Source of the DNA: Phycisphaerae bacterium
Lineage (GTDB): Bacteria; Planctomycetota; Phycisphaerae; UBA1845; Fen-1342
Length of the DNA: 64,000 nt
NCBI GenBank assembly: GCA_050115495.1
Contig: JASFQK010000032.1
Span: forward strand, 17,769-81,768
Direction of reading: 5' to 3'
This document shows positions 51,001-57,000 of the stretch, piece by piece (within the stretch, counting starts at the first letter, position 1; every line of letters begins with the position of its first letter). The position numbers are program-made.

Positions 51001-54000
51001 CGATCCACCACGGCGGCGGCGTAGGCATCGGCTACTCGCTCCACGCCGGCATGGTCATCGTGGCCGACGGCACCGCGGAGGCCGACCGCCGACTCCAGCG
51101 CGTGCTGACCACCGATCCGGCGACGGGCGTCTTCCGCCACGCCGACGCCGGCTACGACCTGGCCATCGAGGTCGCCCGCAGCAAGGGCGTGGACGTCCCC
51201 GGCCTCGCGTAAGGCCGCAAGACCCCCGGTCATTCCCACACATGCAAAACGGGCCCGCCACCAGTCGTGGCGGGCCCGCTTGTTTTCTCTAACACGGACC
51301 GGCGGTCACCGGCCCGGCCGCGACGCTAGTCGTTGTCGCCGCGACCGTACAGGATGTACACCTCGCCGGAGTCAACGCGGCCGCTCGGATCGGCGAGCAT
51401 CGCGCTGATGGCGTAGTCGTCGTTGCCGTCGCCGTCGATGTCGCCCAGAGCCGCCACGCCGCGTGAGTACGCCGCGAACGAATAGCCCGGATCCGACGGA
51501 TACGTGCCGGCGAAGGTCTTGCTTCCGCCGCCGGCGCGGTCACCCGCGACGCGACCGACGAACTTAACGCCCGGCAGGTCGACCGTGCCCACTTCGGCGA
51601 GTTCCTGCTCGCCGACGAGATCAGCCGAACCGTAGATCAGGTAGACGGCGCCCTTGCCGCCTTCAGCACCCGGAGCGGCGATGAGCACGTCGCCGTACCC
51701 GTCGCCATCCACGTCGCCGACGCCGGCGACGTTCGCCCCGGCCATGTCATCCGCGGCCTCGCCGACAAAGCGAACCGCTTCGGCATTCGCGTCGGACAGC
51801 ATCTCGGCCACCGTCCAGCCGCCGGAGGGGCTCTCCAGGAACTGCGAGCCGAAGATGATGACGACTTCGCCGGTGTAGCCACCGGTGACGGCGTTGCCGT
51901 CCGGGCTGCCGACGATCACGTCGTCGTAGCCGTCGTGGTTGAAGTCACCCGCCGAGTCGAAGACGCGGGCTAGGTTCTGGCCGGCCGACGTGCCCTGGAG
52001 CATGACACCCTTCAGGCGCGACGGGTCGCTCGGCGACTTGGCCAGGTTCTCCAGCAGGTAGTCACCCTCCAGGCCCTGTCCGCGGCCGTAGACGATGAAG
52101 ATCGAGCCGACGGCCTGGCCGGAGAAGGTCACGGTTGCCGGTTCACCCGGGGCACCCGGCGTCACCACGGTCTGCCGCACGTTCGTCGAGCCGACCGCGA
52201 AGTCGCGGATGCCGTCACCGTCCACATCGCCCAGAGCCCGCACGTACGAAATCGTCGCATCGCTATGCGGCCCAACGATCTGCGGCGTTCGGTCCATGTA
52301 GTAACCGGCGGTGCCGGTCACGTACGGCGTGTAGCCGGTAATCCTGCTCGCATCGAGCACGCTGGCCGAGGAGCCCTCGACGCAGTCGTTACCGTCGAAC
52401 TCGAAGAGCTCCGGATCGCCGTAGTTCCCGCGGATCGAGCCGATCGTTTCGATGATGTACTGGTGCGGCACGGGCATAGTGTAGTCGGTGCGGCTGGGGA
52501 TCTCGGTGTCGACGTTCGGGTAGGTCAGCCGGACGATCTCGGGCGGGTCGTTCTCGTCCTCGCCCGGGATCTCGCGCGTGCCGGGCTCGACCCAGAGCTG
52601 GGCCCGGTTCGGCCCGTTGCCGACGCGCACGTCGGTCCGCAACTGGTACACGACGCCCGCGGCGACGCGGTCGGCGTCCAGGCTGGGCACGTCCTCGCGC
52701 AGCGCGGTGCGCTGCGGCGAGGCGATGTACAGCCAGCGGCCGTCCGACGCCACGGTCGTGCCGAAGCGGTCATCCACCGACTGACCGAGGACACGAGCCC
52801 CGACCGACGTCGGCGGAAGCGTCACACCACCGACGCTGTGGGACCGCGGGCTGCCCACGGTCGCCCGACCGTAGAAACCGGTCCAGGCGCTGATCGGCGG
52901 CATGCCCGCCACCACCACCCAGGACGGAGTGCAGGCCACAGTCGTGCCCGGCAAAGGAACCGGGACGAGCGGGCAGGCCGTGTCGCTACCCCACACAAAC
53001 CAGCGGTTGGTCACTTCGCAGCCGTCCGGGTCACCGTCGTAGTCGTTGTCTTCACAAGGCGCGACATCCAGCGGCAACTGCGCCGTAAAGATGGAGGCAT
53101 TGGTCAACGGAGGATCAGCAACAACAGTCGTCCAAGGCATCTGGAACCCACCGGGTCCCTGGTGGCAGCTCTCTCACCCCCCGCCTAGCCATACATCCCA
53201 GGCTACAACCCAGGATTGGTACTCCGTCTCGTCGGGATTCTCCCCGATGCCGCCGCAGTCGTCACAGCCCTCCTCACACGGAACGTCGGGATCCTCGCCG
53301 CCGCACACGCACCCTTCAGGCGTTTCCTCGATGCAGTCCTCGCAGCCGAAGAACCCGGCTGGATTCGGATACAGGTCGCGCATGTACATGGCCAGTGACG
53401 GGCGCACCATGAAGTCGAACATCTCGCCGACCTCGTGCAGGTCGAGCACGCGGTCGAACTTGCGCGTCAGCGTCCCGGAATCCTGCAGCATCTCGTTGTG
53501 GCTGGACACGATGACGATGCCGCCACGCGCGAACTGCACCTGGTCCGGCACCCACGCCCCGCTGTTGTAATCGATGGCGTCGAACTCGAACCGGCCCATC
53601 CCGTTGACGTCCGCGACCAGTTCGGGGTGCTGGTAGGGAACGCCTTCCACGAAGGCCGGTGACTCCAGCGTCAGCGACTCGACGCGCGGGAAGCTGAACA
53701 CGAGCTCGGCCAGGTTGTCGCCGTCCATGTCGGGCACGACGGCGATGTCGGACAAGCCCTCGGTGTAGTTGGTGTTCTGGGGCACGCGGATGCCGCGGAA
53801 CGTCACGCCCGGAATCGTCGTGCCCGTCGAGTTGAGGTACTTGATCCCGTGCAACCGCTGTCCCGGGTTGCCGTAGATCATGTACGCCTCGCCCCAGCCC
53901 TGGCCCTGGAACCCGCTCAGGTTCGGCTTGCCGTAACGCGCCCCGATCAGCAGCTCACTGGCCCCGTCGCCGGTCATGTCCGGCACGCTGACCATCGAAC

Positions 54001-57000
54001 TGCCCGCCAGGTCGTTGAAGTTGAACCCTTGCAGGATCGCCCCGTGAATGCTGCTCGTCAGCTTGCTGAGCGGGAACTCGCCCACCAGACGATCCGTCAG
54101 CCGCAGGCGGACGAAGCCGCCGCTGTCTCGCGGTGCGTAGAACTTCACCGGCGGATCGATGCCGTCGGAGATCATGACATAGTAGTAGTACTTGCCCAGC
54201 GGAGCCGTCGCCAGCACGACCGGGAAGGTGTGCAGCCCGGCCGTCACGCCGGCCTCCACGAACGTCACTTCGTTGCCGCTCAGCGGCACCGTGTCCGGAT
54301 CCAGCAGCACCGTCACCGTATGCGGCGAGGTGTCATCCGTCGTCAGGCTGACCTCCCAGATCCCTTCGCGGGTGACCAGGTGGTCCTTCTGATCCGCCAC
54401 GCCGCCCTGCGGCCCGGCGCCGATCCAGGTAGCCACCGGGGGCTGGGCGTCGATCGTCACCGTGCCGGCCGCGTAGCCGATGGCCGTCATATCGCCCGTG
54501 GTCCGGATGCGGATGCCCAGCACGAACCGGCCGTAGTCGTTCGTCACCAGGCCGGCGTTCACCAGCGCCTGCGTGCCGAAGGTGTACGTGTTCACGCCCT
54601 CCGCCGCCGCTACCGCCGGTATCTGGACGTACACCGGGTCGCCGTCCGGGGCCCGGTCGGCGTTGTCGTCCCGGGCCACGACGATTTCGGTCTGGGCCAC
54701 GGACGTCCGGTAATCCAAGGCGAGGTTGAACACGATGTTGACCGCGCCCGGCGGACGAACCGTCACGGCGTCAAACGGCGACGTGAAGCCCAGGTAGGCG
54801 TTCCCGCCACCCGTCTCGTCCTCCGGGGTCGTGCCATCCCCCGTGTCGGGGTTCTGCTGCTCCCCCTGGTTTTCCTCCCCTTCCTCGTCCTCGCCGTCGA
54901 GCGGCGGGGGCGGGATCGGGCGGTCGTCTCCGCTCGTGTCCGTGGACGAGTCATCCTGGTTGACCGTCGACGGGTCCTCGTCGTCCGCTGTCGTCGCGGG
55001 CTGCTGCTGCACTGGACAGCCGCCCAGCAACGTGATACTTAGCAGACCAGTTACGAGCACGGACAGGAACAAGTATCGGGAGCACCGTGCTAACATGCTT
55101 GGGAACCTCCGTTACTTCGGGGTAGCTACAATCCGGCCGTCATCACCGGATGATTTCGGCTGTTTCCCCCTGCCACTTAGGCACACTTCGACATCCTAGA
55201 TCGGCGCAGGTGTCGAGTCAACGGGAAGTCTGAGTCGGCCGCTCCACCGGCCTGGACGCAAGCAGCCGCCACGAGGAGAAATGCAATATCGGCCGCCGTG
55301 CCGCCCCCGGATGTTTCCGGCCCGTAGGAATGACCCAGCTTCGAAAGGACCAGAATGTGAGTACGATTCGCCCGTTCACCGCCATCCGCTACGCCGCGTC
55401 CCAGGCCCCCCGAGGCGACCTCTCCACCCGCCTCGCCCCGCCCTACGATATTCTCGATCAGAGCGACAAAGAGCGGCTGCTCGCCGCCGACCCGCTGAAT
55501 TTCGTCAAGATCGACCTCCCGCACGTCCCCCCCAAATCCGCCGGCCCGGACAGCGTTTACCGGGCCTCGCGGCAGACGCTCGACGCCTGGCTGGCCGACG
55601 GCACCATGCTCCGCGACCCCCAGCCCATGCTCTACGCCTACCACCAGAAATTCCAGCATGAGGGCCGCGATTACACGCGCCGCATGCTCTTCGCCCGACT
55701 CCGCCTCGAACCCTTCGGCACCGGCACCGTCTTCCCCCACGAGCAGACCTTCGGCGGCCCCAAGGAAGACCGCCTCGCCCTGACCAAGGCCACCCAGGCC
55801 AACCTGAGCCCGATTTTCGGCCTCTTCGAGGACGCGGCCAACGAGGTCAGCGACCGCCTCGAGGCCGCTCTGCCCGAGAAACGCCTGTGCTGCGGCCGCG
55901 TGCCCGGCACGGACGTGGACAACCTGTTGTGGGGTATCAGCGACTCGGACACCATCAATGCCGTCCAGAAGCTGCTTCAGCCCAAGCCGATCTTCATCGC
56001 CGACGGGCATCACCGCTACGGCACCGGCCTCCTGTACCGCGACTGGCTCACCCAGCAGGAGGGTGCCCTGCCCGATGAGCACCCCGCCAACTACGTCCTC
56101 GCCGTCCTTTGTGCGATGGAGGATTCCGGGTTGCTCATCCTGCCGACGCATCGCGTTCTGCCCGGCGTGAAAGCTACCGCCGACATCTTCCAGGCCGATC
56201 CGCAGGTCGAAGTCAGCAAAATGGGCGTCACGGACCCCGCCGAAGCGGTCCGCGCCCTCGCCGCGTTCGGTCCCCAGGCCGTCGCGTGCTACGATCCGGC
56301 CACCAAGAGCTACTCGGCGCTGCGGCCCTGCAAGCCGGAGATCCTCGACGCTCTCGAGCCCGAGCACAGCCCCGCGTGGCGCCGGCTCGGCCTCGCTTTC
56401 CTGCACGCCTACCTACTCGACCGCCTGGTCACGCCCAAGCTCTGTGGTGGCCAGGCCCCGACCATTCAGTACATTAAGGCCGCCGAACCGGCGGTCGACA
56501 CGGCCCGCGAGACCAGCGGCGTCGCTTTCCTCATGCAGCCCACGACGATGGAAGAGATGCGCGGCGTGTGCAGCGCCGGCGATCTGATGCCGCAGAAGAG
56601 CACCTACTTCAACCCGAAACTGGCCAGCGGCCTGGTAGTGAACCCACTGCGGGCGTAACGCCTCGCCGAAAGCGCGATGTTCGCTGAATAACAGAGCAAC
56701 CGGCGGGCGGAACTTGCCCTACGGGTTCTGCCCCGCCGGGAACAGTTCATCGATTTGCGTGAGGTCGCTGGGCGTCAACTCGACGCCCACGGCCCCCACG
56801 TTTTCCTCGATCTGCTCCGGCTGGCTGGCGCCGATGATCACGCTGCTGACTGCCTCCCGCTCCAGTAACCAGGCGAGCGCCAACTGCGCCAGCGTCAGCC
56901 CATGCTTCTCGGCGATCGGCCGTAGCCGCTCCACACGCTGAGCCAGCGCCGGGTCGATCTCCTTGAGGAACACGTTCATTCGCTTGTCGGCCGCCCGGCT

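What a model noticed while it worked through the whole genome (the two positions that open the first line are those of the whole stretch)
51326..55096. New selenoprotein family: a 1250-aa FG-GAP/integrin-like surface lipoprotein with Sec in a WLGGGU loop
Genes g03440 and g03439 are one 1256-codon ORF read through an in-frame UGA at C32:70942-70944 as selenocysteine. The Sec sits in a WLGGGU insertion loop of a Cys-rich, FG-GAP-repeat surface lipoprotein; most homologs lack the loop and none seen has Cys there, so Sec appears to have come with the loop rather than from a Cys site.
Evidence so far: Homologs in 33 of 45 family genomes lie in open frames of 1200-1800 aa. UGA at the same codon in 5 distinct sequences (this genome, G104, L181, L182, L184; calls 43,48,49,51); all 5 carry the identical hairpin GGGACCC-GGT-GGGTTCC starting 15 nt downstream, whereas non-UGA homologs vary at those synonymous positions; spacing and GGT loop match the SECIS of the genome's other selenogenes. 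Genome has selA, selB, selD, tRNA-Sec.
(Added by a program. Inside this text positions count along the whole contig: contig position 17,769 is position 1 of the stretch shown here. "Call 12" and the like, gene names such as g00115 and contig names such as C1 are that model's own, and its searches are not shown. The text may have been shortened before it was handed on; [...] marks where a part breaks off. The agent that wrote the report below was given it as the finding of a first reader that could run no searches.)

Follow-up and report, generated by a model that had tools for sequence, protein, structure and literature searches.

The report
Integrin-like selenoprotein without cysteine counterpart
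An apparent stop codon in the middle of a large exported protein gene of sediment and wetland Planctomycetes is very probably read as the rare amino acid selenocysteine, which founds a selenoprotein family that databases split in two and that, unlike the catalogued ones, shows no cysteine version among the relatives found.

Summary
Confirmed and extended. Window 51326-55096(-) is one 1256-codon ORF with a single TGA at codon 641. The same TGA occurs in 7 diverged homologs whose DNA I read, all with the identical hairpin GGGACCC-GGT-GGGTTCC. Four of only 8 invariant four-fold codons among 88 are the hairpin's; 0 of 36 non-TGA homologs have that codon set. 31 database protein clusters end exactly before this codon (DNA seen for 3). 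The genome has selA, selB, selD and tRNA-Sec. The model is an integrin-alpha-type propeller (Z 23) carrying a Cys-rich insert. No Cys was found at the site; losses went to Ser, Gly or deletion. New here: Sec has a candidate Cys partner in all 8 sequences (UxxC in 5, a distal Cys in 2, CxxU at a second TGA in 1), and that Cys is absent where Sec is lost. Best reading: a Sec-Cys redox pair on an exported lipoprotein. Selenium incorporation, surface location and function are untested.

The parts
51326..55096 (-). Complete gene, 1256 aa when TGA641 is read as Sec
   Evidence: homologs in open frames of about 1200-1800 aa
55016..55096 (-). Signal peptide with lipobox LGG-C27 (predicted lipoprotein)
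   Evidence: sequence; strict lipobox pattern in 62 of 83 proteins tested, most misses being GC-P variants or truncated starts
54083..55015 (-). Acidic low-complexity linker and beta-rich N-terminal region (probably Ig-like stalk; not modelled, no Pfam hit here)
   Evidence: no hit; PF17957 on some longer homologs; inference
51329..54082 (-). Integrin-alpha-type FG-GAP beta-propeller with large insertions (residues 339-1256)
   Evidence: PF01839 E 3e-25; AlphaFold pLDDT 93; integrin alpha Z 23.2, rmsd 3.8, 400 aligned
52799..53419 (-). Cys-rich inserted domain (about residues 560-766): long beta-hairpin with acidic Cys-rich tip, Sec loop at its base
   Evidence: DSSP strands at model residues 229-239 and 286-301; alignments; boundaries approximate
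53174..53176 (-). In-frame TGA, predicted Sec641
   Evidence: 7 of 7 DNA sequences; 31 clusters end just before it
53165..53167 (-). Cys644 of the U-x-x-C motif, candidate Sec partner
   Evidence: present in 5 of 7 Sec sequences and 0 of 59 others
53143..53159 (-). SECIS-like hairpin GGGACCC-GGT-GGGTTCC overlapping codons for (Q)GPGGF(Q)
51250..51278 (.). Terminator-like stem between this gene and the convergent urocanase gene
   Evidence: 12-pair stem with T tail on + strand; use by this gene is inference
49539..51212 (+). Urocanase, conserved convergent neighbour (synteny marker, no functional link shown)
55330..56658 (+). DUF1015 gene, conserved divergent neighbour (synteny marker)

Best explanation
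The gene encodes one exported, lipid-anchored, integrin-alpha-type beta-propeller protein. SelB bound to the 17-nt hairpin makes the ribosome read TGA641 as selenocysteine (about 0.93 likely; shown by comparative evidence, not by experiment). One clade of this Phycisphaerae gene family gained a 6-residue Gly-rich loop that carries Sec. Sec pairs with one dedicated cysteine as a selenenylsulfide: Cys+3 in most, a distal Cys (WTGF-x-G-C) in others (about 0.7; inferred from co-occurrence). The most likely role is an accessory, reversible redox centre (thiol-disulfide exchange or oxidant sink) on a Ca-binding envelope scaffold or adhesin whose core function does not need selenium, since most orthologs lack the loop (about 0.5 overall; inferred). 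A side effect is that full-length protein is made only when selenium is available, because a stop at 641 would leave most propeller blades unmade (inferred).
For: Decoding: same TGA in 7 sequences of roughly 50-60% identity; the metagenome pattern was neutral to the codon and to synonymous sites and its 3 in-frame family hits of 5 all had TGA plus the hairpin; 31 clusters end at DxW[LF]GG[GAST]; 4 of 8 invariant four-fold codons among 88 are GGA CCC GGT GGG, three of them rare in this genome (6%, 12%, 19% of Gly codons); 0 of 36 non-TGA homologs have the set, the closest (4 of 5) being the Gly revertant; hairpin meets all four bSECIS constraints of PMC13188914 Fig 2A; loop position +21 against +19 to +22 in SelW-like, Omp28-like and OS_HP2-like genes of the genome; Sec machinery here and selB over cut-off in 4 of 4 other TGA genomes; an RNA-library contig spans 52883-53299 unchanged. 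Pairing: family Cys columns co-occur as pairs (717/919, 585/614, 708/722); after these, Sec is left with C644 in 5, C743/744 in the two UxxT/UxxS forms (only 1 of the other 93 segments has it), and C-3 at G054's second TGA; Sec loss goes with partner loss (P0001 SxxN, G054 GxxS). Fold.
Against: No proteomics or selenium labelling. The hairpin is invariant, so there is no covariation (0 of 7 pairs), and its energy beats synonymous shuffles only moderately (fraction 0.003-0.16). DNA was seen for only 3 of the 31 truncated clusters; the stop codon of the other 28 is assumed. Whole-region Cys parity does not discriminate (Sec forms 3 even, 4 odd; others 29, 29) and six Sec proteins have stray Cys. 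The two C744 forms may be one event. No redox fold, partner gene or reductant is seen: neighbours are urocanase and DUF1015 in Sec and non-Sec forms alike. RNA evidence is contigs from one study, which may hold DNA.
Confidence: 0.6

Rival explanations
1. Sec is decoded, but the Se-S bond is a purely structural staple that stays closed in anoxic, reducing sediments and never cycles.
For: The domain is full of co-occurring Cys pairs that look like structural disulfides; no redox fold or reductant gene is near; the partner Cys differs between homologs.
Against: A plain disulfide would seem to serve, yet no Cys form was found; the site is a Gly-rich loop of lower confidence (pLDDT 79 against 93).
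Confidence: 0.2
2. Sec (with the partner Cys and nearby His/Trp) is a soft-metal ligand or a nucleophile for covalent attachment to a partner, not a disulfide-type centre.
For: Exposed position on an exported protein; His at +4 in 2 of 7; several catalogued selenoproteins are metal-binding (PMC13188914 Table 1).
Against: No conserved set of further ligands around the site; no metal-handling neighbours.
Confidence: 0.12
3. TGA is a real stop: the gene is split into two cooperating polypeptides, or is a pseudogene.
For: TGA is the commonest stop in the genome (745 of 1741 training ORFs); an ATG follows 12 codons later in 4 of 7; databases annotate two genes.
Against: No Met at that place in G027, L107, L110; the C-terminal part has no export signal while the N-terminal part is a lipoprotein; identical hairpin at synonymous sites only in TGA forms; both halves intact in all 7; 31 clusters share the site.
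Confidence: 0.05
4. TGA is read through as another residue (Trp, Gly, Cys) by hairpin-stimulated suppression or a variant code.
For: Gly and Ser occur at the site in two homologs.
Against: TGA is a general stop here; the only Rfam-supported UCA tRNA is tRNA-Sec; hairpin fits the bSECIS model and decays where the codon is a sense codon.
Confidence: 0.03

Closest known systems
Bacterial selenoprotein genes with in-frame UGA and downstream bSECIS (119 families, PMC13188914 Table 1)
   Same: In-frame UGA, hairpin meeting the consensus model, SelA/B/D and tRNA-Sec, UxxC/CxxU-type motif, anaerobe-type hosts.
   Different: No FG-GAP or propeller family in Table 1 and no NCBIfam selenoprotein model hits it. 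No Cys form found, whereas PMC12013277 states that all known selenoproteins seem to have Cys homologs. Sec lies in a lineage-specific insertion of a non-enzymatic scaffold.
Integrin-alpha-type FG-GAP seven-bladed beta-propellers (PF01839; bacterial examples in PMC3192720, abstract seen)
   Same: FG-GAP repeats with DxDGDG Ca-type loops; fold Z 22-23 over about 400 residues.
   Different: About 500 extra residues in insertions; N-terminal lipid anchor instead of C-terminal transmembrane helix; no beta subunit looked for or seen; carries Sec. Not an integrin.
Exported thioredoxin-fold selenoproteins (Omp28-related NF045500, TlpA-like UxxC)
   Same: Exported, UxxC motif, present in the same genome.
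   Different: No thioredoxin-family HMM hit for this protein; the motif is followed by a three-residue helical turn in a beta-rich insert; the +3 Cys is absent in 2 of 7.
Glycine reductase selenoprotein A (long thought to lack Cys homologs)
   Same: Precedent for a selenoprotein without an obvious Cys counterpart.
   Different: Cys homologs of GrdA were later found (PMC12013277), which is a warning that a Cys form of this family may also turn up.

Membership tests
Bacterial selenoprotein gene | In-frame UGA with conserved coding sequence on both sides, shared by homologs | tested here: met
   7 DNA sequences; 31 clusters truncated there
Bacterial selenoprotein gene | bSECIS: 3-9 nt loop, 4-16 bp stem, G in first two loop positions, 16-37 nt spacing, MFE <= -7.5 | tested here: met
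   3-nt GGT loop, 7 bp, spacing 21, -11.0 kcal/mol against the model in PMC13188914
Bacterial selenoprotein gene | Hairpin under selection beyond the protein sequence | tested here: met
   4 of 8 invariant four-fold codons among 88; 0 of 36 non-TGA homologs
Bacterial selenoprotein gene | Compensatory base changes in the hairpin | tested here: inconclusive
   all 7 pairs invariant
Bacterial selenoprotein gene | selA, selB, selD, tRNA-Sec in the genome | tested here: met
   selB in 4 of 4 other TGA genomes; not testable for the 3 metagenome contigs
Bacterial selenoprotein gene | Cys-containing homologs at the Sec column (usual criterion, not a mechanistic requirement) | tested here: not met
   0 of 72 spanning proteins by pattern and none in 17 more read by eye, two of which (P0098, P0107) did not show an alignable site
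Bacterial selenoprotein gene | Selenium in the protein | not testable with these tools
   needs MS or 75Se
Integrin-alpha-type FG-GAP propeller | FG-GAP repeats and propeller fold | tested here: met
   PF01839 over cut-off; Z 23.2, rmsd 3.8, 400 aligned to 7ceb_A
Integrin alpha subunit | C-terminal transmembrane helix and leg domains | tested here: not met
   protein ends with the last blade
Bacterial lipoprotein | Signal peptide with lipobox Cys | tested here: met
   LLGG-C27; conserved GGCP; pattern only, no predictor run
Bacterial lipoprotein | Lipidation and surface versus periplasmic location | not testable with these tools
   needs experiment
Thioredoxin-fold UxxC oxidoreductase | Match to thioredoxin-family profiles | tested here: not met
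   no Pfam or NCBIfam thioredoxin hit for the protein or the insert
Thioredoxin-fold UxxC oxidoreductase | Thioredoxin fold by structure | tested here: inconclusive
   isolated insert modelled poorly (pLDDT 58) so its structure search is uninformative

The most novel reading that the evidence does not exclude
A selenoprotein family in which Sec arose inside a new insertion with no CxxC ancestor, using an existing GPGGF coding stretch as raw material for the SECIS, in a non-enzymatic integrin-like envelope protein; the Sec-Cys pair then moved around the domain (partner switch to a distal Cys, and in one lineage loss at site 1 with gain of a CxxU and a new hairpin 36 codons downstream), showing selection for a selenium centre that sulfur does not replace.
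Probability: 0.4. Interest if true: 0.85.

Novelty: new variant of a known kind. Interest (0 to 1): 0.72.

Why it matters
Current bacterial selenoprotein discovery filters on Sec/Cys pairs, and PMC12013277 says such pipelines may miss proteins without Cys homologs and that none seems known. This family would be a concrete exception, found by synonymous-site constraint and shared truncation instead. It puts Sec on an integrin-like envelope scaffold rather than an oxidoreductase, gives a small natural series (Sec, Ser, Gly, deleted, relocated) for testing how Sec sites and SECIS elements arise, and shows that at least 31 database clusters are half-genes. With the other exported selenoprotein candidates in the same genome it points to an unexplored envelope selenoproteome in Phycisphaerae.

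Tried and rejected
The search for related loci with the single insert sequence found nothing (38 pattern hits, none confirmed). Pattern scans gave chance hits that I discarded after translation: most of the 43 loci (16 were family members), L108 and L109, and L176, L179, L180. 'TGA' flags for G008, G068, G057 are terminal or outside the aligned frame. A codon-score scan for TGA read-through was too strict at first (missed the target) and too loose afterwards (185 of 1090 candidates had some hairpin), so a hairpin alone is not evidence. My first reading of UxxT/UxxS as peroxidase-like motifs was dropped once the distal Cys was seen. The first tree was flawed by mis-cut segments and is not used; the second left out 23 sequences and is a quick tree. 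G027 falls outside the Sec clade in both half-trees on long branches while its central segment is closest to Sec forms: mosaic or artefact, not resolved, no AU test run. The insert alone modelled poorly and matched nothing, and the ESM Atlas gave no hit; neither shows a new fold. Whole-region Cys parity was uninformative. The promoter-like site at 55221-55193 is at chance level (1 against 0.4). ARAGORN's second tRNA-SeC (C3:95769) has no Rfam support. Run X3 held only scattered pieces and X1 may be the source sample. One search was in the wrong frame and is void. Literature searches that found no description of this family; the BSepDB supplement was cut when stored, so its family list (Table S2) may not have been searched.
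Full report
1. Observation. Under table 11 the region holds two ORFs on the minus strand, 640 aa (53174-55096) and 604 aa (51326-53140). 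With TGA read as Sec they are one 1256-aa frame with a single TGA at codon 641, window 53174-53176. Fourteen bases after it starts GGGACCC-GGT-GGGTTCC (53143-53159), a 7-pair stem with a GGT loop at +21 and -11.0 kcal/mol. The genome is 66.7% G+C; relatives carry Phycisphaerae or Planctomycetota titles, and the runs that hold the DNA are wetland metagenomes.

2. Sec machinery. selA, selB, selD with its own in-frame TGA and tRNA-Sec at C24:83297 (66.7 bits) are present. selA passes the cut-off in 67 of 72 family genomes; selB passes in 4 of 4 other genomes with a TGA form. Other TGA genes of this genome hit NCBIfam selenoprotein models (SelW-like over cut-off; two Omp28-related and two OS_HP2 below cut-off). 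Their hairpin loops start at +19 to +22 and mostly hold G-U. TGA is otherwise the commonest stop (745 of 1741 long ORFs), so there is no general recoding.

3. Homologs. 72 of 72 family genomes match; by my count 50 hold this gene and 22 only a shorter paralog. Outside the family only 5 of 207 order genomes gave weak hits to the insert. The gene sits beside DUF1015 and/or urocanase in all 12 loci examined, Sec or not, so these are orthologs at one locus. TGA at the same codon was read in 7 sequences: G000, G027, G038, L049 and three metagenome contigs. The metagenome pattern did not specify the codon or the synonymous positions; 3 of its 5 hits were family members and all 3 had TGA and the hairpin. 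Three protein searches and one profile search gave 31 clusters at 90% identity that end exactly at D-x-W-[LF]-G-G-[GAST]. I saw DNA for 3 of the 31; for 28 the stop is assumed to be TGA.

4. The hairpin is under selection. It overlaps the conserved peptide GPGGF, so the test is at synonymous sites. All 7 TGA sequences use GGA CCC GGT GGG TTC; 0 of 36 non-TGA homologs do (33 match at 1-2 of 5 wobble sites, 2 at 3, 1 at 4). Across the 7 aligned proteins 88 four-fold columns have the same residue; only 8 have an invariant codon, and 4 of these are the consecutive hairpin codons, three of them rare in this genome, while the other 4 are the commonest codons. Every wobble base is either paired or is the loop U. 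Against this: no pair covaries, the energy exceeds synonymous shuffles by a fraction of 0.003 to 0.16 only, and the sequences are related. The hairpin meets the four constraints of the consensus model (PMC13188914, section 5 read).

5. Expression. A metatranscriptome run holds 77% of the gene's words. Its contigs cover both halves, and one (52883-53299) crosses the TGA without change. These are contigs from one study and may include DNA, so this shows presence, not transcription level.

6. Protein. The N terminus is a signal peptide with lipobox LGG-C27 (62 of 83 proteins by a strict pattern). Residues 339-1256 were modelled at pLDDT 93 and match integrin alpha propellers (Z 23.2, rmsd 3.8, 400 aligned); Pfam gives FG-GAP. 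About 200 residues are inserted between two blades: a long beta-hairpin with an acidic Cys-rich tip, with the Sec loop at its base followed by a three-residue helical turn (pLDDT 79 in that block). No NCBIfam selenoprotein or thioredoxin model matches.

7. No Cys form; direction of change. Of 72 proteins spanning the site by pattern, 64 have the short loop-less segment and none has Cys in it; 17 more were read by eye, with no Cys at the Sec column (one loop-less protein, P0148, has a Cys at the column of W636; two gave no alignable site). Full-length loops with a sense codon are Ser (P0001) and Gly (G054); four others have shortened W-loops. In the tree of the N-terminal blades 24 of 28 loop forms and the 3 short forms included make a clade (SH-aLRT 99) with Ser and Gly nested; 3 Sec forms and G027 lie elsewhere (23 sequences left out, quick tree). 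In the C-terminal tree 8 of 9 loop forms and the 3 short forms make a clade (99), again without G027. The simplest history is one gain of loop, Sec and SECIS, then several losses, with possible segment exchange. An unsampled CxxC ancestor is not excluded, and Sec-to-Cys change is said to be rare in bacteria anyway (PMC13188914, section 10), so the surprising part is the missing ancestor, not the missing revertant.

8. Sec has a partner. Family cysteines co-occur in pairs (717/919, 585/614, 708/722; four near-invariant ones at 588, 681, 693, 905). After these, Sec is left with C644 in 5 of 7 (UESC, UQLC, UASC, UASC, UPAC; 0 of 59 others have it). The two without it (UPAT, UPSS) both have WTGFLG-C at 743/744, seen in only 1 of the other 93 segments and in one C-terminal fragment (P0116). 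Where Sec is lost the +3 Cys is absent too (SxxN, GxxS). G054 has Gly at site 1, a decayed hairpin, and a second in-frame TGA 36 codons later in C-Y-G-U, with a 5-pair hairpin whose AGTT loop is again at +21; a second allele with 13 substitutions ends at the same place. That hairpin is weak (-5.8, no better than shuffles), so relocation is about 0.6 likely and a nonsense mutation remains possible. Against pairing: stray cysteines, uninformative parity, and no coordinates to check.

9. Mechanism. Shown: one ORF, conserved TGA, selected hairpin, Sec machinery, propeller fold, export signal. Inferred: SelB-dependent Sec insertion (about 0.93); a Sec-Cys selenenylsulfide (about 0.7); a reversible redox role as an accessory to a Ca-binding envelope scaffold (about 0.5), ahead of a structural staple (0.2) or metal or covalent chemistry (0.12). 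A split gene is unlikely because the restart Met is missing in 3 of 7 and the second half has no export signal.

10. Comparison with what is known. Table 1 of PMC13188914 (119 families; read in full) has no FG-GAP or propeller family. PMC12013277 (passages) says all known selenoproteins seem to have Cys homologs and that its pipeline may miss those without. PMC13326102 (passages and a cut supplement) has no FG-GAP mention in what I could see. PMC3192720 (abstract) documents integrin-type propellers in bacteria. Searches found no description; subscription papers are not covered. Integrin loop topology and Sec chemistry beyond these texts are recalled knowledge.

11. Verdict. A real, very probably Sec-containing family, new among catalogued selenoproteins and unusual in scaffold and origin; function untested. 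Novelty: new variant of a known kind. Interest 0.72.

Noticed in passing
G000 C21:59077(-) and C39:50968(-) (L151, L150); homolog loci L184-L192: A second candidate selenoprotein family: carboxypeptidase-regulatory-like domain with G-U-G-x-(G)P fused to a TlpA-like redoxin. TGA in 13 of the 14 strongest matches, hairpin with GGTC-type loop at about +25 in most of 10 read; no NCBIfam selenoprotein model covers that site.
   Followed up: partly
G054, L005/L042, codon 36 after the first site: Second in-frame TGA in a CxxU motif with a weak hairpin at the same spacing, in the homolog that has Gly at site 1; possible relocation of Sec.
   Followed up: partly
G000 C24:38902(-) (L152): Small exported protein with C-G-U motif, hairpin GGCGTC-AGGTCC-GACGCC and a PEP-CTERM-like tail; no family hit for that part.
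   Followed up: no
G000 C14:114950(-), C3:61923(+), C33:63531(-), C33:61942(-), C23:92950(-): Further TGA genes resembling Omp28-related, OS_HP2/DUF1573 and SelW selenoproteins, most with export signals: an envelope-rich selenoproteome.
   Followed up: partly
L049 / G279: Contig titled Armatimonadota carries the Sec gene next to DUF1015 (64% identical to this genome's), the Phycisphaerae arrangement; probably mis-binned or mis-titled.
   Followed up: partly
L016 (G027): Propeller blades group with loop-less forms while the central segment is closest to Sec forms; possible mosaic gene.
   Followed up: partly
G000 C10:81604-84078 (L031, L032): A 1025-aa-frame FG-GAP paralog without the Cys-rich insert; similar-sized hits occur throughout the family.
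   Followed up: no
L167:10923-14284 (G061): Genes with GatB/GatE plus GAD domains and GatD N-terminal plus asparaginase domains, i.e. a GatDE-like pair, recalled as typically archaeal.
   Followed up: no
window 41648-44296: Two 202-aa ORFs in tandem followed by a Vps4-like AAA ATPase (PF00004, PF09336); the 202-aa ORFs were not scanned.
   Followed up: no
window 53000-53300 (codons 601-700): GC3 falls to about 0.7 around the Sec loop against about 0.9 in most of the gene.
   Followed up: no
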